Below are positions 22,391 through 42,765 of a stretch of DNA of 64,000 nt, in pieces. Both the position numbers and the translations under genes were made by a program. The stretch comes from an uncultured Erysipelotrichaceae bacterium (lineage in GTDB: Bacteria; Bacillota_I; Bacilli_A; RFN20; CAG-826): contig ONAT01000002.1 in assembly GCA_900315885.1 (NCBI GenBank), positions 28,776-92,775 on the forward strand. Reading direction: 5' to 3'. Every line of letters starts with the position of its first letter. The first letter of the stretch is position 1. The notes beneath the pieces are model-generated. The model was not told where the DNA came from. It was given only the letters and a program-made list of their open reading frames with translations, and searched no databases.

Positions 22391-22528
22391 TTCTATATTT
22401 TTTATTTTATCAAAATTTTATAAATAAGTCGATAATTTAGTTTATGACTTATTTAGTGTTTAGTTTACGACTTCTTAAGATATTTGTTTTTAATCTTAAA
22501 ATATAGTAAAATATGGTAGGTGTTAGAA

Positions 22529-23272
22529 ATGGAACAAAAAAAATTTACTGTAAAATTCGCAGAAACTAAAGAAGAGTTAGATGCAACTTTTGCTTTAAGA
22601 TACAAAGATATGATTTTAGAATACAATTCGGAATCTCAAAACGAACAAAAACGTGATAGAAATATTTTTGATGATATTGCAAAGCAAATCATAGTTATAA
22701 ATAACGAGACAAATGAAGTAATAGGCTGTTATCGTTTAATAGATAATGCATTTTTTAATAAAAGCATTAGCACTTTTACATGTGAAAACGAATTTAATAT
22801 TTCAAAAATTAAGAATTCTGGTCATCGTATTTGCGAATTATCACGTGCGGTAATAAAAAATGAATATCGCACTGGTGTTCCGCTTATTTTATTATGGAAA
22901 TTTATCTATGATTACGCTATTAAAAACTCCATTCGTTTTCTTTTAGGAGATGCAAGCTTTTTTGGAATTGAACCTTCTAAACATATTCATTCTCTATCTT
23001 ATTTAGCACATTATCACGCTATTGAGAATGAATTTGAAGTCACTTCGCTCGAAGTGAACCCACAAATCAAGCTTCTAAAAAAAGAACATATTAATGTTGA
23101 TGAAGTAAAAAGCAACCTTCCACCTTTAATAAAGGCATATCTAACTTTCGGCTCTAAATTTTCAAAAGAGTATTTTATTGATCGCGATTTTAAAAGTATT
23201 GATGTCTTTACATTACTTGATTTTGAAAATTGTAATTTAAAATTATTAAAAAAATATCTACGTGTCGCCTAA
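22529..23272 (+). CDS. GNAT-family N-acyltransferase of the hemolysin/OlsB/GlsB-like class (Acetyltransf_5-like).
   Basis: Size and pattern (FTVKFAETKEELDATFALRY; CYRLID; ICELSRAVIKNEYR; LLWKFIYDYA) match the aminoacid N-acyltransferase family. Divergent from the PlsC-family acyltransferase. Probable start at the internal Met MEQKK (track ORF starts at 22520). Confidence 0.55.
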   Translation: MEQKKFTVKFAETKEELDATFALRYKDMILEYNSESQNEQKRDRNIFDDIAKQIIVINNETNEVIGCYRLIDNAFFNKSISTFTCENEFNISKIKNSGHRICELSRAVIKNEYRTGVPLILLWKFIYDYAIKNSIRFLLGDASFFGIEPSKHIHSLSYLAHYHAIENEFEVTSLEVNPQIKLLKKEHINVDEVKSNLPPLIKAYLTFGSKFSKEYFIDRDFKSIDVFTLLDFENCNLKLLKKYLRVA

Positions 23273-23310
23273 TTTTGTGTTAACTCTTCTTCTTTTTCAT
23301 ATAATATCAT

Positions 23311-23913
23311 ATGGAAAAAAAGTTGATTGGCATACCCATACGAAAATATAAAGATTTAAAAACCGATGTTATCGGCATATATGCCCGTTATCTAGATTAT
23401 TTTGAAAGCAACAATTTAATTGTTGTCTTTTTGACGTTAAACAATTATAAATATCTTATTAATTCTTTATCTTGCCTTGCACTTATTGGTGGGGGAGATG
23501 TTAATGCTAAGATATATAATTCTCTTGATACACTTGATTATGACTATGAACTAGATAAACTTGAATTTTTATTAATAAAAGAGGCTCTTGAACGCAAGTT
23601 ACCTATTTTTGGTATATGTCGAGGCTTACAAATTCTTAATATATATTTTGGTGGAACCTTAAAAGAAATCCCTTCTTCACATCTTGGTTTACACAATATA
23701 AAACTTAAAAATGATGTAGTAAAAAGCGTTAATTCTTTTCATCATCTTTGTATTGATAATTTAGCTAGTAATTTTTCGATATTAGCCAAAAGTAATGATT
23801 TCGTAATTGAAGAAATCGAAGACAAAAAAAGGATGATATTTGCCATACAATATCACCCTGAAATAAATTTTGATTATGAAGTAATTAATTACTTCTTATC
23901 ATATTTGCGTTAA
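23311..23913 (+). CDS. Class I glutamine amidotransferase-like / peptidase C26 gamma-glutamyl hydrolase (PuuD-like).
   Basis: Nucleophile elbow FGICRGLQILN; His-Glu in AIQYHPE. Confidence 0.7.
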   Translation: MEKKLIGIPIRKYKDLKTDVIGIYARYLDYFESNNLIVVFLTLNNYKYLINSLSCLALIGGGDVNAKIYNSLDTLDYDYELDKLEFLLIKEALERKLPIFGICRGLQILNIYFGGTLKEIPSSHLGLHNIKLKNDVVKSVNSFHHLCIDNLASNFSILAKSNDFVIEEIEDKKRMIFAIQYHPEINFDYEVINYFLSYLR

Positions 23914-25971
23914 TTAATAACGCATAATATAGCCACCAGATTTTGTAATCTCATCATAAGCATTATCCATCAATTGATAATCATAACGCTTATTTTCAAA
24001 GTTTTTATAAACTTCGTCATAAGGAATACCAGATACACTTTCAACAGTTTTGCTAACTAAATCAAATAGTTCATCTAGACCATCAAATGAAGTAATGCAT
24101 GAGTGGTATTTTAATTCTGAATCACCGTCAGAATCTTTGTAATAAAGATTTTTACTATTAAATACTTTTGTTCCATCATCTTTATAAGTAATCAAACTCT
24201 TTTTCATTGGCACATAGCCATTAACAATCATATTTGCGTTCCATCTATTATGTTCTTGATACGCCATCGCATTTCTTAAAGATAAAGTATGTGAGAAATG
24301 AGTAGGATATACAATATTTCCATCTTTTCTTTGGATCTCTTTAAAATTATCATAAATTTTAAAATATTCTTCGCGACTTATAGCTTTACTCTTATCATCT
24401 GTGACTTGTAGGCCCATCATACCTAATTTTTGTAAAATAGAAATAACAGAATCAGAATTGCTACGTTTTTTATCAACATCTAATTTTTTCCATACTTCGT
24501 TAATGGTTAATTTAGTATTTGGATTTCTTTCTTTTTCGTAATTGTACGCTCTTGCTTTCGCACTACCTAAAAGTTTTTCATTAATGATAACATCTTCATT
24601 AATGACACTTTCGACTGTGCCAAATGGAATTAAGCCATTATCTTTAATAATGCTTTCATAACGAGCGTTATCGATTTTTACATAAATATTTGTGTTAGAC
24701 TTAACATTCCATTCATGAAGTTTTTCTTTTAAGCGCAGAGCTAACTCGACATTTTGTAAATCATCACCAAATGAGATAATAAAAGCATTAAATCCATTAG
24801 TAATAGAGACACAATTATGTATCTTTTTATAGAAATCGAAATTATTAATGTCTAAATGTTCAAATGTTGTATTACTTATTTGATCACATCTTGGGAAATA
24901 TTCATCATTAATATCAAGATATTCCATTCTCTTAATGGTGTGATTAAAAAGATTATCTTCAATGTTGTTTTTATCAAAAATATAATAATTTACTGGTTTC
25001 CCGACGAATTTATCGTTTTTAATCGTAATAAATTGATAGAACTTAACAAGATTTAAATATAATGTTTTATTTGTGCCCCCAAAGCCGATTAAGAAGGCAT
25101 TAATTTTACTATCCGCATTAACTGTTCCTGTTTTAGTATCAAGTATTTTACCAAATGAATGTGAAAAATTATTGGATGAAACAAATAAATCACTTGTTAA
25201 TTGATGTTTATTAAAGAAATGAATATTTAAATTTGTGCCTTTAATCATTTTCTTTATTAAGTACCAGTTCTTATCTTTAATTAAGAAATATGAGTCATTT
25301 TCAAATTTTGAAAGATAATCAATAAGTTTGTATTGCTTTAATATGTCTTCTTCAAAAGAAATAAAGATATTATTTTCTTTGGCAAAGCGTTTCAAATCTT
25401 CAACTTTATTAATAATTGCAACATGCTTCTTTTCGTGCATTAATTCATCTTTAATTTTTTTATCTTCACTACTTAATAAAATGTAGACTCTCTTTTTCGT
25501 AGATTTTATAAAAGTTTTCGCATTTTCGTTATAGCCTAAAACCACTAATGAATTCTTTTTGATGATTAAATTTTTAAAGAAATTAACAATTTTATTAAAA
25601 AATAAATCAATAACTAAAGAGAATGTTATATAGGCGTAAAGTAACGCAACAACATAATATGCACATTCAAAATATGTGTTTTGTAAAGCCTGAGTCAAGT
25701 TACCTCTTGAAACATTGAGAGTTATCATTTTAAAACTATTATAAATAGAGTCAAAAATGATAATTAGAGGATTACCTACACCTTCATAGATATAACCACT
25801 TATCAATAAAGTAATAGATATGATAAAAAGAGGGACATAAAAAGAAGAATATTCTTTTAAAAAGAGATGCTTCTCTTTTATTATTTTATAAATTAATAAA
25901 CATAATAATGTAAAATCTAAAATGCAACAAATAATCGATATAATAGTCATTATTGAAGTCCTCCTGGACAA
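23914..25971 (-). CDS. Integral membrane protein (4-5 N-terminal TM helices) with two Rossmann-like (RCK/TrkA-N or SLOG-like) domains and a C-terminal RyR-like domain; candidate effector for the upstream TIR proteins.
   Basis: TM segments in aa 1-130. Glycine-rich beta-alpha starts LVVLGYNENAKTF and AFLIGFGGTNKTLYL. C-terminal MAYQEHNRWNANMIVNGYVP resembles the RyR repeat core (A..EHNxW......GW/Y). Start overlaps the 3' end of the TIR gene by about 20 nt. Confidence 0.45.
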   Translation of the reverse strand: MSRRTSIMTIISIICCILDFTLLCLLIYKIIKEKHLFLKEYSSFYVPLFIISITLLISGYIYEGVGNPLIIIFDSIYNSFKMITLNVSRGNLTQALQNTYFECAYYVVALLYAYITFSLVIDLFFNKIVNFFKNLIIKKNSLVVLGYNENAKTFIKSTKKRVYILLSSEDKKIKDELMHEKKHVAIINKVEDLKRFAKENNIFISFEEDILKQYKLIDYLSKFENDSYFLIKDKNWYLIKKMIKGTNLNIHFFNKHQLTSDLFVSSNNFSHSFGKILDTKTGTVNADSKINAFLIGFGGTNKTLYLNLVKFYQFITIKNDKFVGKPVNYYIFDKNNIEDNLFNHTIKRMEYLDINDEYFPRCDQISNTTFEHLDINNFDFYKKIHNCVSITNGFNAFIISFGDDLQNVELALRLKEKLHEWNVKSNTNIYVKIDNARYESIIKDNGLIPFGTVESVINEDVIINEKLLGSAKARAYNYEKERNPNTKLTINEVWKKLDVDKKRSNSDSVISILQKLGMMGLQVTDDKSKAISREEYFKIYDNFKEIQRKDGNIVYPTHFSHTLSLRNAMAYQEHNRWNANMIVNGYVPMKKSLITYKDDGTKVFNSKNLYYKDSDGDSELKYHSCITSFDGLDELFDLVSKTVESVSGIPYDEVYKNFENKRYDYQLMDNAYDEITKSGGYIMRY

Positions 25972-26945
25972 ATGTAATTGTTTTCAAATCCTTCTTTTTC
26001 TAATATCTTAAATAAACCTTTTGATTGACGTTTAGGAAGGGTAAAATAAACCCTATTTGTCGTGCCTGAATCACTAATGGAAATATCAGTAAGTCCAGCA
26101 TTTTGCAATAATTTAATAAATTGTTCCTTAATCATTGAATCGTAAATATCGACAAAACATTTAAATGTTACACCATACATGTTACTTACAAGAATTAAAT
26201 AAGTAACAGTATAATTATCAATTGAATAATTATCATATACTTTATTTAAAATAACGATTTCTTTACTTGTTTTTTTTGGTAAATCAATGAAAGGACAATG
26301 TTGATGTGCCATATAAAATTTGCAAAAACAATCATCTAATTCTTCACCGTTTTTATAACAGACTCGATTAGTTTCTGTGATGTATTGACGATACATTTGT
26401 GGAACGATAAATTGAAATTGATAAGAATAACGTGGAATTTTTTCAATTCCAGGAATCGCAATTTTTAAAGAAACATAACCTAGTTTACCTAATACTTCTT
26501 TGTTAAATTCTTCTTTTGTTAATAAATTTGATTCAGCTTCAAACAAATCAGAAAATAATGTGTTCTTTTTTAATTCTTCTTTTAATAAAGCTAAATCATC
26601 AATATATGTGGCATTTGGTAAAAATGACTTTTTAGTGCCTTTAAAAACATATAATTTTTTATGCATGGAAATTAAACGACCTATTTCAAACATAGTCCAA
26701 GGCGTATTAATATCTCCAACAATCACCGCACATGTTGATTTCGCAATCATTTCATTAATGCGGTTATAAAAATCTTGAGTCTCCGCATTTAATAACTTAT
26801 CAGATAAAATATTAACTTCATCTCCACAATAAGCGATAATCTCATTTACTAATTCTTCGTTTGCCCGAGCGTAACTTAAAAACACTCCAACTTCTTTTTG
26901 TTGGTCTGCACTTATTTTAGTAATTTCTAAATTTAATTCACCCAT
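25950..26945 (-). CDS. TIR-domain protein (N-terminal TIR, roughly aa 18-110) with a ~200 aa C-terminal domain of unknown function; paralog of the upstream gene.
   Basis: Box-1 VGVFLSYARANEE (aa 19-31). Beta-C CAVIVGD. Alpha-C helix TPWTMFEIGRL has W83 and putative catalytic E87 in the S-x-W-C-x-x-E-L position. The C-terminal region (GVTFKCFVDIYD..KEQFIKLL..RVYFTLPK) is paralogous to the 359 aa neighbour. Confidence 0.6.
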   Translation of the reverse strand: MGELNLEITKISADQQKEVGVFLSYARANEELVNEIIAYCGDEVNILSDKLLNAETQDFYNRINEMIAKSTCAVIVGDINTPWTMFEIGRLISMHKKLYVFKGTKKSFLPNATYIDDLALLKEELKKNTLFSDLFEAESNLLTKEEFNKEVLGKLGYVSLKIAIPGIEKIPRYSYQFQFIVPQMYRQYITETNRVCYKNGEELDDCFCKFYMAHQHCPFIDLPKKTSKEIVILNKVYDNYSIDNYTVTYLILVSNMYGVTFKCFVDIYDSMIKEQFIKLLQNAGLTDISISDSGTTNRVYFTLPKRQSKGLFKILEKEGFENNYICPGGLQ

Positions 26946-26956
26946 AAAGTTACCTC

Positions 26957-28036
26957 CTATTTCGGATAAAAATAGTTGACAGTTTCACTATATTCTTCTT
27001 TAACATCATCTTTGGCATCATAGAATAATCTGCCATCTTCAATATTAAGTGGGAAATACACTCTAACTTTATCATCAACAATCTTTTTTACGATTTGTTC
27101 TTTCTTTAATCCATCATCCACTAAAATAGTGACTAAATCACTTGGTGTAATGTCGTTATCTTGAATTTCAAAGAAAGGTAAGAAAGTAACACCTAATATT
27201 TCGTTATTTGGCACTACGAATTCCATCTTAATTGAACCAACTAAATCAGTTGGATCAACTTCTTCGCCACATTCAATTTTCTTAAAAGTTTTAATTTTTG
27301 AAAACATACTGCGAAGTGGAAAATCTAAATCAAGACGTTTCATTTCTTGATGATATGGCCAATAGCCAATATTTTCAAAACTTATTTTTTGTCCAAAATG
27401 CAATACTCTAATGCCAGTCATAACTGATTCTTCTAGCATTGTGTAAACATCATTAAGCGTGATATCATCACGTACTTTACTTAATCTTTCATATATTTTT
27501 AATAACGAATTATATCTTAAATCGAGCATAACGACAAATTTAACATAAAAAATACGATTACGAGTGTAGCAATCTATCGACTCATCTTTAAAAATGTTAA
27601 GAGGCAACGTGATAAAGTTTTTGACCGCTTCAATAACTTTTTCTTTACTAGAAAGTTGTACATCTCTAATTGGTGACTTAGAGAAAAGATTAAGACTTTC
27701 TGGACTTAATCCTGCATTATAAAGCATTAATTTCTTACCAATTAAAACTCCTGCTTCATGCATTGTGTAGTTATACATTTGAGGGTCATTAAGTGTTTCA
27801 TCATCAAGAACAATAATACCAACATCGGCTTTTAAACAGTTATAAATAGATTTTTCGACTAGAAAATCATTATCAAGATTTTCTTTACTTTTAACATATA
27901 AATAATAGTTAAAACCATATTTATCGAGTTCGTTTAAAAATTCACGGCATTCTTCAAGCTTATTTTCATTTAAACTAATATAAAGCAATAACCGTTTTCC
28001 TGGATTTCTAATTTCTCTTTTAGACGCAAGGAACAT
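26957..28036 (-). CDS. TIR-like domain protein (divergent N-terminal TIR or flavodoxin-like fold) with the same C-terminal domain as the downstream paralog.
   Basis: LLLYISLNENKLEE (box-1-like), GIIVLDDETLNDPQMYNYTMHEAG (beta-C plus helix with E94). C-terminal GVTFLPFFEIQDND..KEQIVKKIV..RVYFPLN aligns to the 331 aa paralog. Confidence 0.45.
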   Translation of the reverse strand: MFLASKREIRNPGKRLLLYISLNENKLEECREFLNELDKYGFNYYLYVKSKENLDNDFLVEKSIYNCLKADVGIIVLDDETLNDPQMYNYTMHEAGVLIGKKLMLYNAGLSPESLNLFSKSPIRDVQLSSKEKVIEAVKNFITLPLNIFKDESIDCYTRNRIFYVKFVVMLDLRYNSLLKIYERLSKVRDDITLNDVYTMLEESVMTGIRVLHFGQKISFENIGYWPYHQEMKRLDLDFPLRSMFSKIKTFKKIECGEEVDPTDLVGSIKMEFVVPNNEILGVTFLPFFEIQDNDITPSDLVTILVDDGLKKEQIVKKIVDDKVRVYFPLNIEDGRLFYDAKDDVKEEYSETVNYFYPK

Positions 28037-28037
28037 C

Positions 28038-29633
28038 TTACTCCACCTCCATTACATAAGCTTGATATGGTTCGATTACTTTGTAATCGTGAAAGTTGTT
28101 ATAATTATTATACAATACTCTTTTAACATTAGGCAAATTATTAAGGGTAATGACATTATTTGTACAATTACAAATAATTAATAAATTGCCTCGTTTATAA
28201 GAAATAATCCTCTCATCTAACATAATTTCTTCATAATAGCTTTGGGTAATTTGTGTTAAACTCTTACGAAGTTTTATGATTTTTTTATATTCATTAAGAA
28301 GAGATCTTTCTTCTTGCTCTTCTTTTTTAACATTTATTGTCTTGTAATTTGGATTAATGTGAAACCAAGGTTTAGAAGAAGAAAAGCCAGCGTATTCACT
28401 ATCATCCCATTGCATAATGGTACGTGCATTATCGCGGCTTGTATCTTTTACAGCGTTAACAAATTCTTCTTCACTTAAAGTGGTATTTAATTTATAAGTT
28501 GTACGAATTCTTACATCATCAAAGTCTGAAACTTTTTTAAATGGGTAATTAGTCATACCGATTTCTTCGCCGTTATAAATAAAGGGTGTTCCTTTTAACA
28601 TATACATTAAAACCGCTAACATAGAGCCGGATTCAATAAAATAATCCATATCACCATATAAACTCATCGCGCGTTCAATATCGTGATTAGTTAAATATAA
28701 GCCCATCCAGCCTTTTTCATTTAATTCGTTTTGATATGCACTTATCAAGTTTCGCATAGCTTTAACATCCATCTTATTGCTAGACATATTATGTAAATCT
28801 ACTTTTGCACAATTAGTAAAACCAAAAGTATAAACCATATCTAATTCATCATTACAATAATCTAGGGCTTGTTTGATTGTTGGATTTCCTCCAATCTCAC
28901 CAATAGTCATAATGTTATAATGCGAAAAAATTTCTCGTTTAAATTCTTTTAAAATATTATGAACTTCTTTCAAGTTACTAAATAAGGAATAATCATAAAC
29001 TAAATCTTTATTAATTGGAGTGGTATTTTCTAATTTCTTTTTGCATAGGTGTGAAATTGCATCTAATCTGAAGCCATCAATACCTAAAGCAAGATAATAC
29101 TTGATTATTTTCTTTACTTCTTTTTTAAGATTAATGCTCTTCCAGTTTAAATCTGGCATTTTATCAGAGAAGATATGTAAAAAATATTCTTTGCGTTCTT
29201 CGTTATATGAAAACGCACTGCCTCCAAAAAAACTACCCCAATTATATTTTTCTTTACTCCAAATATAAAAATCGTCATAATATGGGTCTTTTGCACATGA
29301 TTTTTTAAACCATTCATGCTCAATTGAAGTGTGATTTAAGACTAAATCAAAAATAATCTTTAATCCTAAGTTATGAGCCTTAGTTATCATTTCTTTAACA
29401 TCTTCCATTGTGCCATAATCAGGATTTATTTTGTAATAGTCACGAATATCATATCCGTTATCGTCCATCGGAGAATCAAATATTGGACAAATCCATATTA
29501 AATCAATTCCTAAATCTTTTAGATAATCTAATTTTGAAGTAATGCCTTTTATGGTTCCCACGCTTGAATCAATACTTTTAAAACTTTTAGGATATATTTG
29601 ATAACCAATCGCACTTTTATACCACATTGTCAT
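28038..29633 (-). CDS. GH13 alpha-glucosidase / oligo-1,6-glucosidase-type glycoside hydrolase.
   Basis: YQIYPKSF, DLIWICPIFDSPMDDNGYDIRDY, catalytic region GIDGFRLDAISHL, HDIERAMSLYGD; length 531 aa. Confidence 0.85.
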   Translation of the reverse strand: MTMWYKSAIGYQIYPKSFKSIDSSVGTIKGITSKLDYLKDLGIDLIWICPIFDSPMDDNGYDIRDYYKINPDYGTMEDVKEMITKAHNLGLKIIFDLVLNHTSIEHEWFKKSCAKDPYYDDFYIWSKEKYNWGSFFGGSAFSYNEERKEYFLHIFSDKMPDLNWKSINLKKEVKKIIKYYLALGIDGFRLDAISHLCKKKLENTTPINKDLVYDYSLFSNLKEVHNILKEFKREIFSHYNIMTIGEIGGNPTIKQALDYCNDELDMVYTFGFTNCAKVDLHNMSSNKMDVKAMRNLISAYQNELNEKGWMGLYLTNHDIERAMSLYGDMDYFIESGSMLAVLMYMLKGTPFIYNGEEIGMTNYPFKKVSDFDDVRIRTTYKLNTTLSEEEFVNAVKDTSRDNARTIMQWDDSEYAGFSSSKPWFHINPNYKTINVKKEEQEERSLLNEYKKIIKLRKSLTQITQSYYEEIMLDERIISYKRGNLLIICNCTNNVITLNNLPNVKRVLYNNYNNFHDYKVIEPYQAYVMEVE

Positions 29634-29639
29634 CCACTC

Positions 29640-30563
29640 CTAAATCTCATTATTCATTTCGTTTTCGTTTTGATTTTTGATTAACATTGTCATTGCTTCA
29701 ATGTAATTTTGTAATTTTTTTAATGCCTCAATTTGTATATCGACAATATTGATACTCTCTTTTGCAAATATTGATTTATACATATTGATTTTCCAATCTT
29801 TGATTAAAATAAATAAGTTATCATCAAATAAAACAAGACATAAATTTGTTTTAATAAAATTTTGGAAATCATATAATTCTTTAATTATTTGATAATTTAA
29901 AACGGTATATATTTTGTTATCAAGTGTGGCGTAAAGAGCAAAATTTTTATCATAAAGATAACTATTATTCATCGTTCCTAATCCATATTGTTTTAAATTT
30001 TTTTCGTTATAGGAAAGTTTACCTTTCTTATTGTCATTGCGTAAAATAATCATTTCATTGTAAAGAAAATCTATTTTTGTTTTTATTAACACATCATATT
30101 TATCTTTATCGTGCTTCAATTGAAATAAATCAAAATAAGCTCGACTAGAGGTTTGCGTAAAAGAATACACTTCTTTAAAATCATTAATAAGAATGTAATC
30201 TTTAATGAATTTACGTTCGACATCATTTAGCCCATTAGTGTTTTTGAAAAGTGCTAAACCATCAAGCATTGCTTCATTTTCTAAAAGTGTTTGATGGAAA
30301 ATTTTATATTTCTTATTTAAATGAAAATACATAAGAATAAAAGATATGACACTTAACACAAAGGCTAAAGTTATAAAAATAATAACAGAACTAATATTTG
30401 AGGCACTATCATAAACCCATTTCAAATGTGGATTTAAGAAAGTATAAAAAGCATAAGCAAGCGCGGTCACAAAAAGCATAGCGAAAAGAACGACCAAGAA
30501 TAATTTAAACTTGTTCAAGCGTTTCTTATTCCTTATTTTTTTGCTTGCATAACTTAATTCCAT
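29640..30563 (-). CDS. Membrane protein of unknown function (two N-terminal TM helices plus a ~220 aa soluble domain), sitting where JetD would be.
   Basis: TM helices FKLFLVVLFAMLFVTALAYAF and ISSVIIFITLAFVLSVISFILMYF. Start assigned to the internal Met MELSYASKK with RBS GGGGAGA (track ORF starts at 30590). No recognisable Toprim or other catalytic motif. Confidence 0.4.
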   Translation of the reverse strand: MELSYASKKIRNKKRLNKFKLFLVVLFAMLFVTALAYAFYTFLNPHLKWVYDSASNISSVIIFITLAFVLSVISFILMYFHLNKKYKIFHQTLLENEAMLDGLALFKNTNGLNDVERKFIKDYILINDFKEVYSFTQTSSRAYFDLFQLKHDKDKYDVLIKTKIDFLYNEMIILRNDNKKGKLSYNEKNLKQYGLGTMNNSYLYDKNFALYATLDNKIYTVLNYQIIKELYDFQNFIKTNLCLVLFDDNLFILIKDWKINMYKSIFAKESINIVDIQIEALKKLQNYIEAMTMLIKNQNENEMNNEI

Positions 30564-30614
30564 ATTCTCCCCAATGTTAAATAAGACCAACTAAAAGCGT
30601 TGGTCTATTTAATT

Positions 30615-33600
30615 TTATTTAGCAAAAGATACTTTTTCTTCTTCTGCGTATAATCTTACACGAGATGTGTTCTTATCGTGTAATACTACTAATGTTTCAT
30701 CAACTAATTCAGAAATATCGGCAATCTTATCAGATGGAGCACTGAGAATAGCTTGTAAGCCGAATTTACGTAATAAACGAATTGATTCCGTAATACGACC
30801 TTTATCCATCTTAGAGAAGGCTTCATCAAAGATGATAAGACGTGTGGAATTTCCAAGTTCACCTGGATCATTGACGCGATATAATTGAGCAAAACTTGCT
30901 AAAACTGCAATGTAGAAAGGAGTTTGTGTTTCACCACCACTCTTTTTCTTGATCATTTTAGAAAGACGTTGTTCTTGTCCTTCTTTGTTTGTAACGATTA
31001 AGTCAAAGTCTAAATAGGAACGATAATCTGTAAATTTTTCAACATTTGCAGCTAATTGAGCTGTTTTATCACCATGATCACCGACATCAACGATTTGTCT
31101 AAATAAATCGTTCATAACTTCAGAATATTTTTCAATAAAGGCTGATTCATCTTCGCCAACTTGAAGTAATAAGTCATCTTTAATCATATCGTAGTAACGA
31201 TGATATAGTTGACTTGGCTTACATGTAAAGCGATAGGAGTCGTTACCAAAGCGAGATTGTGATAAAGCATCATTTAAATCTTCAATTTGTGTTTCAACAC
31301 CTTCGATAGCGCTTCTTAATTTAGAGATGAAGTCATCTTTAAATTGCTTTGTTGCCTTATTATAAGCATCGTTAATTGCGATACGATAATGTGGTAATTT
31401 AATATCGCGCAAATCAGATAATTCTTTTTCGTAAGCATCATTATCTTTTTGGTCAGTATCATATGATAAACGATAATCTTTAACATAATCACGACGTAAT
31501 TTCACAACACTATTGAAAATCGTTTGAGCGCGGTATTGCACTTGTGAGTATTTAGCTTGGAAATCAGCAATAATGTCAAGTGGTGACTTACCTTCCACGA
31601 TTAATTGGTTAAATAGTGGCTCTGCTTCTTCGGCGACAACAAAAGCATCATAATTCTCTTTTAAGTGATTTTCTCTTTCAAGAGTTTTATTCTTTGTTTC
31701 AGGTATTTTTTCTTCTTTTAATGTCTTAATTTGCGTATTGAGTTGTCCACGTTCTTCATACAAACTTTGACGTTCATTTTCAAGATTCTTGATATCATCT
31801 TCGACATCTTTAATACGACGATCAAAGCTTTCAATTTGTGTGACATCGTGTTTAGATAACTCATCATCACAATAAGCAATTGTTTGTTTAAGTCCATCGA
31901 CATTTCTTGAAGCTTCAATTAGCGCAAGTGTTGTATTACTTTCATTAGTGTTAATTGATTCTAAGGATGCAGCTTCAGAAATATCTTTATGCACTTCTCT
32001 TAACATAGCAACGAGATGGTTGTTACGGTCAAGTTCTGCACGTTTTAAAGCAATTTGTGCTTCGTTAACACTTCTTCCAATATAAGAAGGTGTGTATAAA
32101 CGAGGGTTGATTTTTCCCATTGCAAAATTACGATAAATATCACAATCAGGAGTAATACCATTCATAGATTCACGAGCTTCTTGAGGATTACGACATTTCA
32201 TCAAACGCCCAATCAAGAAGTTAGTATAACATCTTGCTCCTTCATGGTCCGTTATAATTTCTTCTGCTAAAGAATTCTTCTCACAAGAATAATTTCTTTC
32301 AATAATCTTTTCTTGGTCAACAAGTGTTGTGCCATAGAAATGATTCTTAGCAAGTAAGTCACGTAAGATTTCGTAAGCATCTAAATAATATCTGCCATCA
32401 ACAAATAAATTGAATTTTTGGCTGTGTAAGAAACCTTCGATAGCGTTAATCCATTTTGGTGACTTAATATCAATCAAATCAGCATAAAGAGAAACAGTAA
32501 TTGGTTTACCATATTTCTCAGTTAACCTTCTTTGTAATTCATTTTTAATCATTACAAGGTTACGATCATAAGACTTTGTACCATTTCTTAAATCTGCTTC
32601 TTCCGCACGGAGTTGAGCGGATTGACGGTCAAAGTTTGTAATTGTACGACCTAAAGATACACTCATCGCTGAAACAAGTTTTTTGAACTTATCAAGCGAA
32701 TCACGCCACTCTTTCAAAATCATACTATCTAATGTTTCAATATGTGGTAATTCGTTATCGCGTAAATTTGTGGAAGTACGGACAACTAATTCAGCACATT
32801 CTAATAATTCATTAAATTCATAAGCGCGGTCATCATTTAAAATTGATTTATCAAGAGTTGATAACTTATTAACAATGTTAGAAGCTACGTTAATAAAGTC
32901 ATTCGCGTATTTTGTTAAATTGTTTTTAACAGCCTCCGCATCTTTATTTAAAGCCGCTAATCTTTCAATCGCAGCCTTACGTTGCTCTCTTAATTCATCA
33001 GTAAGTCGATAAGTATCATTACTTGCCTTATCTTGAATGAGACGAGTTTTACGACGATTAAGTTCAGCTATATTAACATCAATATCTGCTAATTCGTTTT
33101 CAATTTCTAACAATCTAGTTTGCGCATTACCAATTGAATCTTCATAAGATTTTAAACGATTCAATTCCATTTGTAATTCGGCTTTTTCGACAACATATCC
33201 ATAAATACTCATATTGTGGAAATTAGTCTTATAAGCTTCATAAGATTTTTCAATTTCTTCTAATCGCTCAACACGAAGTCCCATAATGAGAGCTTCATTT
33301 TCTAAACGTTTATATTGCAAAATGTTTTCTTGCATTGAATCGATAGAAATATTAGCTTGTGAATCACAAATATATTCTGTAATGAAAGTTGTAATATCGG
33401 TAATTGGGGTAAAGGAAACAGCTTTTTTGAAAAGTGAGAAATACTTGTCTTTAATATTTCCAAACTTTTTCTTTAACAATTCTTGATATTGTTTATTTGT
33501 ATCTAAGAACTTAAAGTTTCTTTCACCATAAGTTTCGGCAAAATACTTAGCCAATGTTTTAAAGTCCATTGGAATATTATTTTTAATAAATTCATTTTCT

Positions 33601-34013
33601 GGAATTTTATCTTCTAATAAGAAATAACGATGTTCTTCGCTTCCATCATCATATGAATCAAAGACAATACCTAAAGTAAATGATTTGTCATTTAAGTCAT
33701 CATAGAATTCCATAGCGATATAGGAAGTAAAGCGTCCATCACGTAAATACTTGAAACCACCATCTTCGGAATCACCTAATTCTCCACGAAGGTATCCTTT
33801 TAAAGTACGAGAAGATTTTTCACTCGCTGCTTTATTAAAGAAACGTCCAGAAGTATCGCCTAACAAAACGACTTGCATCGCATCAATAAGTGTTGATTTA
33901 CCAGAAGCATTAAGACCTGTTAAGAAAACAATTGGTTCAATGTTAATTGTTTCGTTCCAAAAATAGTGCCAGTTAATGATTTTAATTTTCTTGAGAGATT
34001 TCATCTGGCTCAC
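30615..34013 (-). CDS. SMC-like ABC ATPase of the MukB/MksB/JetC class (Wadjet JetC-like).
   Basis: N-terminal IKIINWHYFWNETINIEPIVFLTGLNASGKSTLIDAMQVVLLGD (Walker A preceded by the NW..F element typical of MksB/JetC). Long central coiled coil. C-terminal signature SGGETQTPFYIAVLASFAQLY and Walker B LIIFDEAFSKMD. 1132 aa. Confidence 0.75.
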   Translation of the reverse strand: MSQMKSLKKIKIINWHYFWNETINIEPIVFLTGLNASGKSTLIDAMQVVLLGDTSGRFFNKAASEKSSRTLKGYLRGELGDSEDGGFKYLRDGRFTSYIAMEFYDDLNDKSFTLGIVFDSYDDGSEEHRYFLLEDKIPENEFIKNNIPMDFKTLAKYFAETYGERNFKFLDTNKQYQELLKKKFGNIKDKYFSLFKKAVSFTPITDITTFITEYICDSQANISIDSMQENILQYKRLENEALIMGLRVERLEEIEKSYEAYKTNFHNMSIYGYVVEKAELQMELNRLKSYEDSIGNAQTRLLEIENELADIDVNIAELNRRKTRLIQDKASNDTYRLTDELREQRKAAIERLAALNKDAEAVKNNLTKYANDFINVASNIVNKLSTLDKSILNDDRAYEFNELLECAELVVRTSTNLRDNELPHIETLDSMILKEWRDSLDKFKKLVSAMSVSLGRTITNFDRQSAQLRAEEADLRNGTKSYDRNLVMIKNELQRRLTEKYGKPITVSLYADLIDIKSPKWINAIEGFLHSQKFNLFVDGRYYLDAYEILRDLLAKNHFYGTTLVDQEKIIERNYSCEKNSLAEEIITDHEGARCYTNFLIGRLMKCRNPQEARESMNGITPDCDIYRNFAMGKINPRLYTPSYIGRSVNEAQIALKRAELDRNNHLVAMLREVHKDISEAASLESINTNESNTTLALIEASRNVDGLKQTIAYCDDELSKHDVTQIESFDRRIKDVEDDIKNLENERQSLYEERGQLNTQIKTLKEEKIPETKNKTLERENHLKENYDAFVVAEEAEPLFNQLIVEGKSPLDIIADFQAKYSQVQYRAQTIFNSVVKLRRDYVKDYRLSYDTDQKDNDAYEKELSDLRDIKLPHYRIAINDAYNKATKQFKDDFISKLRSAIEGVETQIEDLNDALSQSRFGNDSYRFTCKPSQLYHRYYDMIKDDLLLQVGEDESAFIEKYSEVMNDLFRQIVDVGDHGDKTAQLAANVEKFTDYRSYLDFDLIVTNKEGQEQRLSKMIKKKSGGETQTPFYIAVLASFAQLYRVNDPGELGNSTRLIIFDEAFSKMDKGRITESIRLLRKFGLQAILSAPSDKIADISELVDETLVVLHDKNTSRVRLYAEEEKVSFAK

Positions 34014-34620
34014 CTACTTTCAATTGTTCTAAAGCTTCTGACATTGCTTTAATCTTTTGGTTATCAACCGCAAATAAGATACTTGGTAAAATATAGAATG
34101 CGACGTTACCTTCGTCATAAGATCCACTAACTTTAGCGATAATATTATGATTAGCTAAGAAACGCAGTGACTTAGCGAATAAACGACCACTCATTCTTTT
34201 ACCTGACATCGTAATATTATGGTCAATCATTGTTTTTAATAAAGTTGGAGTAGTGATATAAATCGCTTCACCAGTTTGGCTTGATTCATTTTTCTCAGTT
34301 TCATAAATTAAACGTAAGACAAATAAGATAAGTGATGTTTCTCTTTCCATTCTTAATCTATTTTGCTCGTTAAGATTAATCAAAGCTACAACACCATTAA
34401 GGACATCTTTTTCCATCATCCAATTAGTGTATTTTAAATAGTCATTTATTAAATCAAAGTGGCGTTCAATAAAACGATAATCAGGATTAATACGCATTGC
34501 TTTTTCTTTGTTATCAAATACATCACGTACAATGAAAGATTTTAAAAGCAATGTATTAGTAACACGTGCGAATTCGTTTTGTTCGCCATTTGATAATTTT
34601 TCAAATTCAGTTTCAAACAT
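33982..34620 (-). CDS. JetB/MksE-like protein (DUF4194-like size and position).
   Basis: 212 aa acidic protein; its stop overlaps the SMC-like gene start and its start overlaps the 480 aa gene stop. Assigned by operon position and size only. Confidence 0.45.
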   Translation of the reverse strand: MFETEFEKLSNGEQNEFARVTNTLLLKSFIVRDVFDNKEKAMRINPDYRFIERHFDLINDYLKYTNWMMEKDVLNGVVALINLNEQNRLRMERETSLILFVLRLIYETEKNESSQTGEAIYITTPTLLKTMIDHNITMSGKRMSGRLFAKSLRFLANHNIIAKVSGSYDEGNVAFYILPSILFAVDNQKIKAMSEALEQLKVGEPDEISQEN

Positions 34621-36062
34621 TATTCAGTTTTCTCCTTTCGTTTAAACACAAGTTTTGGTAAAACATAACCTTGAGAAAGGACATGTCCATCGTCGGAATA
34701 ATCTACTTCGTAGAAGCAATCATCATCATTACGATTTAAAGTTGCAAGAATTAAGAGAATAAAGGCATCGTAGTCTGGTAAAGGTATCTCCTCTGCTCTC
34801 ACTTCATCAGCATCACCAAACGCTCTTTCCATAAATTCAAGCACACGCGCACTTGTGAAGACATTACGGGTTTGATCCAAGAAGTTTTGCATAATTAAAT
34901 CGCCAGCTTCTTCAAAGTTATTGACAATTGGTAACGGTTCTCCTATTTCACGATATTGACGGATAATTGGCAGAGTTATTGAATCTGGATCAATATATCC
35001 TTGTTCGTGGAACATGAGAGCATCTTGCATTGAAGTTAAGATATTGCGCAAGTCTTTCGAACCATTTCCCGCCATTGCATCGGCATTCGCTTTTGCGTAA
35101 GCTTTAAATATAGTTTCCAAGTGACCTTTAATTGTCTTATCGTTATTGTTGAAATAAACAATTTTAGAAGCACTAGATTTGGTGTATTCGCTATGACTTG
35201 CATCAATTTGACTAATCATACCATTTAATTGTTCATACATATCTTGTATGTAATTTATCATGTTAATTAAATCCGCTTCTGCTTTTCCATAGTCGCGACT
35301 CTTTCTTAAAATCAAAGATTGCTCAATGAGCATTTTTCTTGTTTTTTCATCACGTAACCACTTTTGTAAAATGGAGGTTATTGGTCTTTTAAAACGAGTG
35401 ACAGAGTCAAATGTTTTCAAAGGGTGATAGAGTCTATCAGAAATACGTACTTTATAATCATCAAAGTGATTAGCAAGAACTTCATTTGTTGTAAACAAGT
35501 TTGATAGGCGATGTTGATAGATTTTAATTTGGTGTCCCAAAGTAACTAACTCAATACGAAGTTTTTTCGTATTTTCATAAGCTCTCAATAAAGTCACATA
35601 CATTAAATCATCTGGGTCATCATCTTCTAATTTCAATTCACTATACGTTGAGTGAACAAGAGAGTTATATGCCGCTTCTGATTCACTATTAATATCTTTT
35701 AAGCACGCAAGCATTTTAATAGAATACGAAGGCAGAATAATATATTCTTCAAACGATTCAGGATCTATTTGTACATCAATCCATCCAGTCTCTTCAAGTC
35801 TACGGAGAATGAATGCAGCACGACTAGGCAAAGTTGGATTTGCAAGAGCGTCATCTTCTGTGCCTTCTTCTGACATATCTAGACTCATAACTAGGTCAGT
35901 GGCATTCTCTTTTAAGATGCGCAAGAAATCTTGCTTTTTAATCGTCATCTCTTCAGTTTCTAGGCTCTTATATAATACTTCTAGAGCCATAGCGTATACT
36001 TCTTTATTTTTACTAGATAGGATTGAGAAAAAGTTGGTAGGAATTATATCAAATAATCGCAT
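34620..36062 (-). CDS. JetA/MksF-like (kleisin-like) protein (DUF3375-like size and position).
   Basis: 480 aa, first gene of the triad, gene order jetA-jetB-jetC as in Wadjet / MksFEB. Assigned by operon position and size only. Confidence 0.45.
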   Translation of the reverse strand: MRLFDIIPTNFFSILSSKNKEVYAMALEVLYKSLETEEMTIKKQDFLRILKENATDLVMSLDMSEEGTEDDALANPTLPSRAAFILRRLEETGWIDVQIDPESFEEYIILPSYSIKMLACLKDINSESEAAYNSLVHSTYSELKLEDDDPDDLMYVTLLRAYENTKKLRIELVTLGHQIKIYQHRLSNLFTTNEVLANHFDDYKVRISDRLYHPLKTFDSVTRFKRPITSILQKWLRDEKTRKMLIEQSLILRKSRDYGKAEADLINMINYIQDMYEQLNGMISQIDASHSEYTKSSASKIVYFNNNDKTIKGHLETIFKAYAKANADAMAGNGSKDLRNILTSMQDALMFHEQGYIDPDSITLPIIRQYREIGEPLPIVNNFEEAGDLIMQNFLDQTRNVFTSARVLEFMERAFGDADEVRAEEIPLPDYDAFILLILATLNRNDDDCFYEVDYSDDGHVLSQGYVLPKLVFKRKEKTE

Positions 36063-36110
36063 TTTTTCTCCTCCTAAAGTTTATATTAAATTTTACCACA
36101 TTTTTAGTCT

Positions 36111-36131
36111 CTTTGTAAATATAATTTACAA
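36111..36131. promoter_or_regulatory. 9-3-9 inverted repeat TTTGTAAAT-ata-ATTTACAAA in the promoter region upstream of the jetA-like gene; candidate operator.
   Basis: Read directly; overlaps a TATAAT-like hexamer; located about 50-70 nt upstream of the 480 aa gene start. Confidence 0.35.
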
Positions 36132-36187
36132 ACAAAAAAATATGAAAAAGTTATATTATTTTAGGCTTTTATGTTATAATCAAAAAG

Positions 36188-36643
36188 GTGATTGCTGTGA
36201 AGATTTATCCAAATATGAAAAAGACTTTAATTTATTTTTCTTTATTGTCGATTGGCTTGTTGTTCTTGTTCTATTTAACATTTGATGGTTCCTTTACTTG
36301 GCCCTTACCTTCTAAAGATTATATTATTTTTGCTGGTTGGCTAGTTATTACTGTTATTTACTTTGTTATAACTTTAAGAGGTGGATATTACGTCTTAGAA
36401 AAAAGTGGTTTAAGACAAAAGCAATTAAATAAAGATTTAATGTATGAATATAAAAGAATTATTTACATTAATGAAGAGTGGTCAAGAAAAAACGGAATGT
36501 TATTATTTGTAACTGATCGCGGAGATGCCAAGTATTTAATTTTAGATAAAAAACAAATTTTACTCGATGAAATGCTTAAAAGATGTTCAAAATTAATGAC
36601 TCGCGAGGAAGTAAGTAACAAATTTCCAAACCTAAAGTTTTAA
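36188..36643 (+). CDS. Small membrane protein (two TM helices), hypothetical.
   Basis: GTG start after AAAAAGG in the ORF track; alternative ATG (MKKTLIYFSLL) at 36215; hydrophobic N-terminus. Confidence 0.4.
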   Translation: MIAVKIYPNMKKTLIYFSLLSIGLLFLFYLTFDGSFTWPLPSKDYIIFAGWLVITVIYFVITLRGGYYVLEKSGLRQKQLNKDLMYEYKRIIYINEEWSRKNGMLLFVTDRGDAKYLILDKKQILLDEMLKRCSKLMTREEVSNKFPNLKF

Positions 36644-42763: not shown

Positions 42764-42765
42764 AT

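What the first reader, a model, noticed from the sequence alone, without database searches (positions are those of the whole stretch)
23914..36062. A 12 kb co-directional, tightly packed eight-gene block inserted between conserved housekeeping loci: candidate composite defence island
From the jetA-like start (36062) to the end of the 685 aa membrane protein (23914), every junction is an overlap or a gap of 25 nt or less (0, 31 overlap, 25, 7, 2, 12, 21 overlap). This implies a single transcription unit: SMC triad, TM protein, GH13, TIR, TIR, membrane effector. Housekeeping genes flank the block. On one side is rpmB and the rsgA-rpe operon, syntenic with B. subtilis. On the other is the aminolipid/DAP cluster. 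A 9-3-9 inverted repeat lies in the promoter. The combination of DNA-topology sensing (SMC) and TIR signalling in one operon would be new.
Basis: inference. Interest (0 to 1): 0.7.

Follow-up and report, generated by a model that had tools for sequence, protein, structure and literature searches.

The report
Nuclease-less Wadjet genes beside TIR cassette
The eight-gene "defence island" is two unrelated units lying side by side: an old, vertically inherited SMC-type gene trio (JetABC) with no nuclease gene nearby, and a recently swapped-in cassette built around a pair of TIR-domain genes, so nothing supports a combined SMC-TIR machine.

Summary
All eight minus-strand ORFs exist at the stated coordinates, and the domain calls hold: type I JetA/JetB/JetC, a 2-TM protein, GH13, two TIR-like proteins and a membrane protein.

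The block is not one inserted island.
- jetABC sits at the same locus (rpe-thiN-rpmB-orf151 | jetABC | glgCDA-leuS) in 76 species of uncultured gut and environmental Bacilli (JetC 50-83% identical). ATPase motifs are invariant.
- No clade locus has JetD within 10 kb, and the 64 kb window has none. Clostridial outgroup loci have JetD directly after jetC.
- A terminator-like hairpin follows jetC here and in many relatives.
- Only GH13-p6-p7-p8 (about 5.8 kb) is lineage-specific. It replaces glgCDA and occurs only here and in one 96%-identical contig.
- The constant unit is the p6-p7 pair. It recurs in at least six other contexts without jetABC, next to varying genes: the p8-like protein, GH13, a GH127-like protein, a Cas4-like nuclease, or none.
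- Tight packing is normal for this genome (25 of 40 same-strand junctions are 25 nt or less).

Best reading: a MksBEF-like, nuclease-free JetABC core locus lies next to an uncharacterised two-TIR, Thoeris-like accessory cassette. Both functions are inferred. The juxtaposition is incidental.

The parts
36090..36119 (-). Sigma-70-type promoter of jetA (TTTACA, 18 nt, TG-n-TAAAAT extended -10)
   Evidence: Consensus scan, 10 of 12 matches with TG; sequence read. The same layout with a TGnTAAAAT -10 is seen in relatives.
36112..36132 (.). Perfect 9-3-9 palindrome TTTGTAAAT-TAT-ATTTACAAA overlapping the -35; candidate operator
   Evidence: Read. Both arms are conserved, with variable spacers, in L006, L007, L016 and L072. 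Other subclades carry different palindromes at the same promoter. No binding protein was identified.
34620..36062 (-). jetA (kleisin-like subunit, 480 aa)
   Evidence: Pfam JetA 4e-96; PADLOC JetA1 2e-128. Orthologues at 47-84% identity in the clade loci.
33982..34620 (-). jetB (MukE-like KITE subunit, 212 aa); 1-nt overlap with jetA and 32-nt overlap with jetC
   Evidence: Pfam DUF4194; PADLOC JetB1 3e-67.
30615..34013 (-). jetC (SMC/MukB-like ATPase, 1132 aa)
   Evidence: PADLOC JetC1 1147 bits. In 80 aligned sequences the core residues of Walker A (G-x-N-x-x-GKST), signature (SGGE) and Walker B (FDEAF) are invariant. Identity co-varies with flanking housekeeping genes.
30584..30606 (-). Hairpin AGACCAAC-GCUUUUA-GUUGGUCU followed by UAUUUAAC, 8 nt after the jetC stop; weak terminator or attenuator
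   Evidence: RNAfold gives -15.3 kcal/mol for the 70-nt segment. Hairpins of -8 kcal/mol or stronger occur after jetC in 52 of 79 loci, with U-tract terminators in L008, L020 and L047.
29640..30563 (-). p4: 2-TM protein with a weak DUF3137-like C-terminal domain (307 aa from ATG 30563)
   Evidence: Pfam DUF3137 2.4e-5, below the cut-off. Orthologues at 50-56% identity sit directly after jetC in L005, L006, L007, L016, L018 and L072. Other subclades have 282-305 aa 2-TM ORFs of similar layout at the same place.
28038..29633 (-). p5: cytoplasmic GH13 alpha-glucosidase, TreC/oligo-1,6-glucosidase-like (531 aa)
   Evidence: Pfam Alpha-amylase 2e-132. NCBIfam TreC 503 bits, below the 799-bit equivalog cut-off. 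GH13 conserved regions are visible in the translation: DLVLNH, GFRLDAISH, GEIGG, NHD. A 58%-identical copy sits next to a p6-p7 pair in L085.
26957..28036 (-). p6: first gene of the TIR-like pair (359 aa); N-terminal TIR-like domain plus a C-terminal domain of unknown function
   Evidence: No Pfam, PADLOC or NCBIfam hit. Distant paralogue of p7 (E 6e-6). The motif (H/Y)EAG, with its Glu, is present in all five homologues whose N-terminal domain is held. A p6-like gene precedes every p7-like gene whose upstream side is visible.
25950..26945 (-). p7: second gene of the TIR-like pair (331 aa); TIR domain plus a Cys-rich C-terminal domain
23914..25950 (-). p8: membrane protein (678 aa from ATG 25950) with N-terminal helices, Rossmann-like regions and a C-terminal EHxRWN (RyR-like) motif; function unknown
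   Evidence: Only three homologue clusters found among 5.8 billion proteins. NCBIfam gives a weak match to the N-terminus of WcaJ-type transferases (3.5e-5). The AF2 model is poor (pLDDT 47), so fold matches are not usable. A 27%-identical homologue follows a p6-p7 pair in L090. Start codon and RBS.
23830..23859 (-). Terminator-like hairpin plus U-run downstream of p8, inside the 3' end of the convergent C26 gene
   Evidence: 11-bp stem followed by TTTTTTT.

Best explanation
The block is a chance juxtaposition of two independent units in a compact genome.

Unit 1: jetA-jetB-jetC, with the 2-TM gene p4 behind it.
- It is an ancestral, vertically inherited core locus of a large clade of uncultured Bacilli.
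- It belongs by sequence to type I Wadjet, but no JetD nuclease gene was found near it.
- It therefore most likely works as P. aeruginosa MksBEF is proposed to: a nuclease-free SMC-kleisin-KITE motor that loads on DNA and extrudes loops for chromosome organisation or segregation. The promoter carries a palindromic operator.
- Shown: identity, synteny, no JetD found within 10 kb in any clade locus, intact ATPase motifs, and a terminator-like hairpin after jetC.
- Inferred: the condensin role.

Unit 2: GH13-p6-p7-p8.
- It is a recently acquired accessory cassette that replaced the glycogen-synthesis genes glgCDA at this spot.
- Its invariant core is the p6-p7 pair: two paralogous proteins, each with an N-terminal TIR domain that keeps the W/Y-x-x-x-E motif and a C-terminal domain of unknown fold.
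- By analogy with Thoeris and TIR NADase systems, the pair most likely senses an invader through its C-terminal domains and cleaves or cyclises NAD+. It would then either deplete NAD+ itself or signal to the variable neighbouring gene: the p8 membrane protein here, or a Cas4-like nuclease or glycosidases elsewhere.
- Shown: TIR fold, obligate pairing, a variable third gene, rarity and patchy distribution.
- Inferred: NADase or signalling activity, any defence role, and any role for GH13 or p8.
For: Unit 1:
- JetA, JetB and JetC match type I models.
- 76 clade loci have JetC at 50-83% identity.
- Of 50 loci with at least 3 kb upstream, 46 carry orf151, rpe or o220. Of 61 loci with at least 4.5 kb downstream, 57 carry glgC-glgD-glgA.
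- JetC identity tracks the neighbouring housekeeping genes (Pearson 0.67-0.85).
- Walker A, signature and Walker B core residues are invariant in 80 of 80 sequences.
- JetD1 follows jetC only in the four clostridial outgroup loci. A JetD HMM finds nothing else in any locus or in the six-frame translation of the window at E<=1.
- A hairpin or terminator follows jetC.

Unit 2:
- Window 23876-29673 has no counterpart in the nearest relatives, which carry glgCDA there. L005 has nothing there.
- The cassette was seen only in the window and in the 96%-identical L001.
- The p6-p7 pair occurs with GH13 in L085, with a p8-like gene in L090, with a GH127-like gene in L086-89 and L092-94, alone in L095, and with a Cas4-like DUF2779 gene in L103.
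- TIR fold; TIR motif with a conserved Glu; relatives pass TIR_2 or hit ThsB models.
- Many Thoeris types with variable effectors are known, including TM proteins, an ion channel and hydrolases. A multi-TIR type III is also described (bioRxiv 10.64898/2025.12.03.692087).
Against: - Whether these genomes keep Smc-ScpAB, or encode JetD at an unlinked site, could not be checked. Only 10 kb on each side of the relatives' loci and 64 kb of this genome were visible.
- The hairpin after jetC in the window has a poor U-tract, so read-through into p4-p8 is possible. No convincing separate promoter for p4-p8 was found.
- p6, p7 and p8 match no PADLOC model. No homologue was found in the phage, plasmid or IMG/VR collections. 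No other recognised defence genes flank the cassette. The defence reading therefore rests on the TIR fold and the gene-neighbourhood pattern alone.
- The recurrence of glycoside hydrolases next to the pair (GH13 in two contexts, a GH127-like gene in one lineage) is not explained by a Thoeris-like model.
- The p8 structure model is too poor to support any effector mechanism.
Confidence: 0.6

Rival explanations
1. One reading: the eight genes form one composite defence operon. JetABC senses foreign DNA topology and passes the signal to the TIR proteins and the membrane effector, replacing the missing JetD.
For: - The genes are co-directional with short or overlapping junctions, and one strong promoter lies upstream of jetA.
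- JetD is missing, so a substitute effector is conceivable.
- The hairpin after jetC has a weak U-tract.
Against: - The combination exists only in the window and in one 96%-identical contig.
- 75 other species have the same jetABC followed by glgCDA, leuS or nothing.
- The TIR pair occurs in at least six other contexts without jetABC.
- Tight packing is the genome-wide norm.
- Terminators follow jetC in relatives.
Confidence: 0.04
2. JetABC is still an anti-plasmid system in this clade. It would work with a nuclease encoded elsewhere in the genome, or without cleavage, for example by compacting or silencing small circular DNA.
For: - By sequence it sits inside the type I Wadjet families, with a best PADLOC JetC1 score of 1147 bits.
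- The nearest outgroup loci are complete JetABCD systems.
- Only 10 kb on each side was searched for JetD.
Against: - No JetD was found near jetABC in any of 76 species, whereas jetD directly follows jetC in the outgroup.
- The locus is fixed, syntenic and evolves at a housekeeping-like rate, unlike typical defence genes.
- DNA cleavage by JetABCD is attributed to the JetD/MksG nuclease subunit (review PMC10586767; titles of PMC10123090 and others).
Confidence: 0.2
3. GH13-p6-p7-p8 is a metabolic cassette, not an immune one. Its TIR/NDT-fold N-glycosidases and an O-glycosidase would act on a glycosylated nucleoside or a sugar nucleotide, with p8 as a transporter or membrane enzyme.
For: - The p7 fold matches nucleoside 2-deoxyribosyltransferases, DNPH1 and CMP N-glycosidases almost as well as it matches TIRs.
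- Glycoside hydrolases lie next to the pair in three of seven contexts.
- The cassette replaced a carbohydrate locus, glgCDA.
- The p8 N-terminus weakly resembles sugar-phosphate transferases.
- No PADLOC hit.
Against: - Relatives pass TIR_2 or hit ThsB models.
- The third gene is not consistently a glycosidase: it is a Cas4-like nuclease in L103 and absent in L095.
- The sporadic, rare distribution is typical of accessory conflict systems.
Confidence: 0.2

Closest known systems
Type I Wadjet (JetABCD / MksBEFG / EptABCD) anti-plasmid system
   Same: JetA, JetB and JetC are full-length, high-scoring members of the type I families. They have the same gene order and overlapping junctions. Clostridial relatives at about 40% JetC identity are complete JetABCD systems.
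   Different: No JetD (Toprim nuclease) was found in the window or within 10 kb in 76 related species. The locus is syntenic core, not a variable island.
MksBEF condensin of Pseudomonas aeruginosa (and, more distantly, MukBEF)
   Same: It is a three-gene SMC/kleisin/KITE set without a nuclease. [quoted passage not shown] That is the state seen here.
   Different: The host is a Bacillota lineage, and the sequences fall in type I Jet families, which suggests a separate loss of JetD. No functional data exist, and the presence of Smc-ScpAB in these genomes is unknown.
Thoeris-type TIR signalling systems (types I-XI, including multi-TIR type III, TM/Macro type II and ion-channel type X)
   Same: There are TIR-domain proteins with a conserved Glu. 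More than one TIR gene sits in the unit. A constant TIR part sits beside a variable neighbouring gene: a TM protein, a nuclease or hydrolases.
   Different: p6, p7 and p8 match no PADLOC ThsA or ThsB model. Both TIR proteins carry a shared C-terminal domain of about 200 aa with no known family. The partners include GH13 and GH127-like glycosidases, and neither the terms amylase, glycosyl hydrolase and RyR nor the accessions PF00128, PF07944 and PF02026 occur in that survey's supplementary files. No phage data exist.
Stand-alone TIR NADase defence proteins (e.g. B. subtilis SpbK)
   Different: Here there is an obligate pair of paralogues, not a single gene. No sequence similarity exists outside the TIR fold.

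Membership tests
Wadjet type I (JetABCD) | JetA (kleisin-like, DUF5716/PF18982) present | tested here: met
   Pfam JetA 322.6 bits; PADLOC JetA1 427 bits.
Wadjet type I (JetABCD) | JetB (DUF4194, MukE-like) present | tested here: met
   Pfam DUF4194 57 bits; PADLOC JetB1 224 bits.
Wadjet type I (JetABCD) | JetC SMC-like ATPase with intact Walker A, signature and Walker B motifs | tested here: met
   PADLOC JetC1 1147 bits. Core motif residues are invariant in 80 of 80 aligned sequences.
Wadjet type I (JetABCD) | JetD (DUF3322 plus Toprim/DUF2220 nuclease) encoded in the operon | tested here: not met
   No PADLOC JetD hit among the eight proteins. A JetD HMM built from the outgroup loci finds no match in the six-frame translation of the window or of the 76 clade loci. 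The outgroup loci do have JetD. An unlinked copy outside the visible sequence cannot be excluded.
Wadjet type I (JetABCD) | Restriction of circular plasmid DNA | not testable with these tools
   Needs transformation and cleavage assays.
MksBEF/MukBEF-type chromosomal condensin | SMC-kleisin-KITE trio without an associated nuclease, stably inherited in the chromosome | tested here: met
   Synteny in 76 species, identity co-varying with the neighbours, and no JetD found.
MksBEF/MukBEF-type chromosomal condensin | Contributes to chromosome organisation or segregation | not testable with these tools
   Needs Hi-C or genetics. No smc-sized ORF other than jetC occurs in the window, and none of the 38 window ORFs screened against Pfam matched an SMC, ScpA or ScpB family apart from jetC; several smaller ORFs were not screened.
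Thoeris-like TIR signalling system | TIR-domain protein (ThsB-like) | tested here: met
Thoeris-like TIR signalling system | Catalytic glutamate of the TIR NADase site conserved | tested here: inconclusive
   A Glu in the W/Y-x-x-x-E-x-G motif is invariant in the six p7-family sequences. It is also present in all five p6-family sequences whose N-terminal domain is held. Its equivalence to the catalytic Glu rests on motif position only, because no residue-level superposition was made.
Thoeris-like TIR signalling system | Adjacent recognised effector (ThsA: SIR2-SLOG, Macro-TM, or another described type) | tested here: not met
   p8 and GH13 match no ThsA or effector model in PADLOC. The p8 fold is unresolved. 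Only the generic pattern of a variable neighbouring gene is seen.
Thoeris-like TIR signalling system | Located in defence islands and protects against phage | not tested
   The neighbours in the seven contexts are mostly housekeeping or transport genes. No experimental data exist.
GH13 alpha-glucosidase (TreC/oligo-1,6-glucosidase group) | Catalytic domain with conserved regions I-IV | tested here: met
   Pfam Alpha-amylase 443 bits over 12-462. The motifs DLVLNH, GFRLDAISH, GEIGG and NHD are visible in the translation. The score is below the TreC equivalog cut-off (503 vs 799 bits), so the substrate is unknown.

The most novel reading that the evidence does not exclude
Two readings are not excluded.

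(a) An order-level clade of gut and environmental Bacilli has independently domesticated a type I Wadjet into a nuclease-free chromosomal condensin at a fixed locus, possibly in place of Smc-ScpAB. This would be a natural example of the proposed path from defence system to condensin.

(b) The p6-p7 pair is a new two-TIR immune module. Its interchangeable partners include glycosidases, which hints at a glycosidic, non-canonical TIR product.
Probability: 0.3. Interest if true: 0.7.

Novelty: new variant of a known kind. Interest (0 to 1): 0.42.

Why it matters
The claimed novelty, SMC DNA sensing wired to TIR signalling, disappears on comparison with relatives. This guards against reading operon-like packing in compact genomes as functional coupling. 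Two smaller points remain.

1. A type I JetABC with no JetD found nearby is fixed at one chromosomal locus across 76 species. This gives a clean natural test of the idea that MukBEF/MksBEF-type condensins descend from Wadjet by loss of the nuclease.
2. A rare, obligately paired two-TIR gene unit has a variable third gene and matches no model in a defence-system database. It is a concrete candidate for cloning and phage challenge.

Tried and rejected
- Looked for JetD among p4-p8, in the whole window and in all loci (PADLOC plus my own HMM). None found.
- Tested whether p4 could be a JetD substitute. It matches no nuclease or Toprim family, only a weak DUF3137 match. It is present in the nearest relatives, and 2-TM ORFs of similar layout occur in some other subclades.
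- Tested for a compositional anomaly in the block. GC and GC3 are within the window's range.
- Looked for mobility signs. There are no tRNAs, no Rfam hits and no flanking repeats of note. No integrase or transposase family appeared among the genes screened next to the cassette. p7 has no homologue in the plasmid, phage or IMG/VR collections.
- Tried to assign p8. The AF2 model is poor (pLDDT 47) and Foldseek gives nothing at or below E 1e-3. Hints of TrkA, CASTOR or RCK folds are not usable. A PDB profile search found nothing.
- I first guessed from the N-terminal sequence that p8 is a degenerate K+-channel pore. I dropped this after the weak match to the N-terminus of WcaJ-type transferases.
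- The RyR-like motif in p8 is supported only by a marginal profile alignment to a neighbour of a p8 homologue (E 0.011).
- The afdb50 fold library was unavailable.
- A literature search for MksBEF in RFN20 or Erysipelotrichales-like lineages found nothing relevant.

Full report
**1. What is in the sequence**

| Gene | Coordinates | Evidence |
|---|---|---|
| jetA | 34620-36062 | type I Wadjet models in Pfam and PADLOC |
| jetB | 33982-34620 | type I Wadjet models in Pfam and PADLOC |
| jetC | 30615-34013 | PADLOC JetC1 1147 bits |
| p4 | 29640-30563 | two TM helices, sub-threshold DUF3137 match |
| p5 | 28038-29633 | GH13 enzyme of the TreC/oligo-1,6-glucosidase group, conserved regions intact |
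| p6 | 26957-28036 | no family hit |
| p7 | 25950-26945 | weak TIR_2 hit |
| p8 | 23914-25950 | large membrane protein, no family hit |

Two start codons need correcting.
- p4 most likely begins at ATG 30563. It has a GGGGAG RBS, and the N-terminus MELSYASKKIR is conserved in relatives.
- p8 most likely begins at ATG 25950. It has an AGGAGG RBS and a TAATG overlap with p7.

The promoter (TTTACA, 18 nt, TGgTAAAAT; 36119-36090) is real. So is the perfect 9-3-9 palindrome at 36112-36132, which overlaps its -35.

**2. Tight packing is not informative here**

In the window, 25 of 40 same-strand junctions are 25 nt or less, and the median is 8.5 nt. GC and GC3 of the eight genes lie inside the window's range. 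The window has no tRNA gene and no Rfam match.

**3. jetABC is core, not inserted**

A scan of one genome per species with JetC returned 80 loci. Four are clostridial outgroups with about 40% JetC identity. The other 76 come from uncultured Bacilli at 50-83% identity. Their records are labelled Erysipelotrichales, Coprobacillus sp. CAG:826, Candidatus Onthovivens, 'Mollicutes' and similar.

I mapped ORFs in all loci against the window proteins and against glgC, glgD, glgA and leuS, which were identified by Pfam.
- Of 50 loci with at least 3 kb upstream of jetA, 46 carry the same neighbours as the window: rlmN-prpC-prkC-rsgA-rpe-thiN, rpmB and the small membrane gene orf151.
- Of 61 loci with at least 4.5 kb downstream, 57 carry glgC-glgD-glgA directly after jetC, usually followed by leuS.
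- JetC identity to the window tracks that of the flanking housekeeping genes (Pearson 0.67-0.85). Its mean identity (59%) is similar to that of rpe (56%) and prkC (53%).
- The core residues of the Walker A, signature and Walker B motifs are invariant in all 80 JetC sequences.

This pattern indicates vertical inheritance under purifying selection.

**4. No JetD**

None of the eight proteins hits a PADLOC JetD model. In the four clostridial outgroup loci a canonical JetD1 (about 410 bits) follows jetC. An HMM built from those four finds nothing else at E<=1, either in the six-frame translations of the 76 clade loci (10 kb on each side where the contig allows) or in the whole 64 kb window.

A Wadjet trio without its nuclease is the state that the review PMC10586767 proposes for P. 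aeruginosa MksBEF. [quoted passage not shown]

My best reading is therefore that this clade uses JetABC as a nuclease-free, MksBEF-like condensin. I could not test whether it replaces or accompanies Smc-ScpAB. The window contains no other SMC-sized ORF, and none of the 38 window ORFs that I screened against Pfam matched an SMC, ScpA or ScpB family apart from jetC. Several smaller ORFs were not screened.

**5. jetABC looks like its own transcription unit**

Eight nucleotides after the jetC stop lies the hairpin AGACCAAC-GCUUUUA-GUUGGUCU, followed by UAUUUAAC. Hairpins of -8 kcal/mol or stronger occur within 64 nt of the jetC stop in 52 of 79 loci. In L008, L020 and L047 they are canonical U-tract terminators.

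In the window the U-tract is poor, so some read-through is possible. Transcription of the rest probably ends at a strong terminator-like hairpin at 23859-23830, inside the 3' end of the convergent C26 gene.

The palindrome at the jetA promoter is conserved in L006, L007, L016 and L072, with varying spacers. Other subclades carry different palindromes at the same promoter. This suggests operator-type regulation of jetABC.

**6. Only GH13-p6-p7-p8 is lineage-specific**

DNA alignment to the nearest relatives breaks at the end of p4 and resumes in the C26 gene. Window 23876-29673 has no counterpart there.
- In L006, L007, L016 and L072 the same interval holds glgCDA.
- In L005 it holds nothing.
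- The cassette appears only in the window and in L001, a Logan contig that is 96% identical at the DNA level.
- The window has no glgCDA.

The parsimonious history is that the cassette replaced glgCDA in this one lineage.

**7. What the cassette is**

p7:
- Only a handful of close homologues turned up among 5.8 billion proteins.
- A profile search of 1.84 billion cluster representatives gave 211 hits, about 40 of them full-length.
- The AF2 model has a confident N-terminal domain (pLDDT about 90).
- The sequence carries an FLSY strand and a TPWxMFEIG motif with an invariant Glu.
- More distant two-domain proteins picked up by the p7 profile pass the Pfam TIR_2 cut-off, and the close family member P0011 hits PADLOC ThsB1 at 1.7e-9.

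p6:
- It is a distant paralogue of p7 (E 6e-6).
- It keeps the equivalent (H/Y)EAG Glu.

The pairing:
- In every context where the upstream side of a p7-like gene is visible, a p6-like gene precedes it. This holds for L085, L086/88, L090, L092, L093, L095, L101, L102, L103 and L104.

What surrounds the pair varies:

| Context | Genes next to the p6-p7 pair |
|---|---|
| window | GH13 upstream, p8 downstream |
| L085 | GH13 (58% identical) upstream |
| L090 | p8-like gene (27% identical) downstream |
| L086-89, L092-94 | GH127-like gene downstream |
| L103 | Cas4-like DUF2779 gene downstream |
| L095 | none |

None of these other contexts contains jetABC.

The pair is therefore the functional unit. 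A constant TIR part with a variable neighbour resembles the expanding Thoeris family. That family now includes TM, ion-channel, hydrolase and multi-TIR types (bioRxiv 10.64898/2025.12.03.692087).

I infer that p6-p7 is a sensor plus NAD+-processing module, probably defensive. This is not shown.
- No PADLOC model matches p6, p7 or p8.
- No relatives occur in the phage, plasmid or viral-contig collections.
- The repeated presence of glycosidases next to the pair is unexplained. It keeps open a metabolic reading, an N-glycosidase plus O-glycosidase pathway.

p8 remains unassigned.
- Its model is poor.
- It has a weak match to the N-terminus of WcaJ-type transferases.
- It has a marginal RyR-like motif.

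**8. Verdict**

The interpretation as one inserted composite SMC-TIR defence operon is not supported. The SMC half is an ancestral core locus with no JetD nearby, and the TIR half is an unrelated cassette that landed next to it in one lineage.

| Part | Novelty |
|---|---|
| JetABC without JetD as a fixed core locus | a new variant of the MksBEF idea in Bacillota |
| Paired-TIR cassette | an uncharacterised variant of TIR-based systems |

Interest is moderate. The striking claim fails, but two testable leads remain.

Noticed in passing
window 20498-23293: A 2.8 kb segment carries a GNAT/FeeM-like N-acyl amino acid synthase gene (22520-23272, +) and a VTT-domain plus acyltransferase gene (20492-22390, -). 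It is missing from the 96%-identical contig L001, where about 50 nt stand in its place, and from all relatives, where C26 is followed directly by asd. It is a strain-level indel of a putative aminolipid module.
   Followed up: partly
window 36112-36132; upstream of jetA in L006, L007, L016, L072, L008-L011, L015, L019, L022, L025, L029, L020, L026-L034, L070, L079: The jetA promoter carries a palindrome in most subclades, but the sequence differs between them: TTTGTAAAT-N3-ATTTACAAA, CATATAAAT-N2-ATTTATATG, TTTATAT-GNTA-ATATAAA and TCTATCC-N3-GGATAGA. This looks like operators co-evolving with an unidentified repressor.
   Followed up: partly
window 36188-36643 (+): orf151 encodes a small membrane protein with no family assignment. 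It is transcribed divergently from jetA and lies upstream of rpmB. It is conserved next to jetA in 44 clade loci at 20-70% identity.
   Followed up: no
L020:13444-14310, L024:13430-14347, L026:13397-14254, L028, L030-L034, L070 (directly after jetC): Several subclades have a fast-evolving 282-305 aa protein between jetC and glgC. Its layout resembles p4: a short N-terminus, two TM helices and a C-terminal domain of about 200 aa. Homology to p4 is at best marginal (L024, E 0.0026). It may be a membrane partner of JetABC or merely a positional coincidence.
   Followed up: partly
L002:2-1147 and L002:1165-3372: The p8 homologue P0002 (25% identical) is preceded by a protein with a near-threshold RyR domain and a DprA/SLOG-like domain, which also gives a weak PADLOC ShosA hit. 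A transporter gene and a GH28 gene follow. This is another nucleotide-binding-type neighbour for the p8 family.
   Followed up: partly
L103:2090-3565: In one metagenomic contig the p6-p7 pair is followed, after a 3-nt gap, by a DUF2779 protein with weak Cas4-like (PD-(D/E)XK nuclease) matches. This is the most effector-like partner seen for the pair.
   Followed up: partly
window 23830-23859 (-): The terminator-like hairpin that would end the p8 transcript lies inside the coding region of the convergent C26 (gamma-glutamyl hydrolase-like) gene. The two genes abut with no gap (23913/23914).
   Followed up: no
window 39732-40613 (-): The PrkC-like Ser/Thr kinase is only 293 aa, with the kinase domain at residues 11-258. 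It therefore seems to lack the TM and PASTA sensor part of B. subtilis PrkC.
   Followed up: no
window 42742-44916 (+): A FeoB ferrous-iron transporter gene on the opposite strand interrupts the otherwise B. subtilis-like priA...rlmN-prpC-prkC-rsgA-rpe-thiN synteny.
   Followed up: partly
P0082 (2677 aa, from the representative search): The p7 profile reports 11 matched stretches in a giant protein that also has Big_13 and FecR domains. The best stretch covers the last 55 or so positions of the profile. A sub-domain of the p7 C-terminus may therefore exist as a repeat module elsewhere.
   Followed up: no
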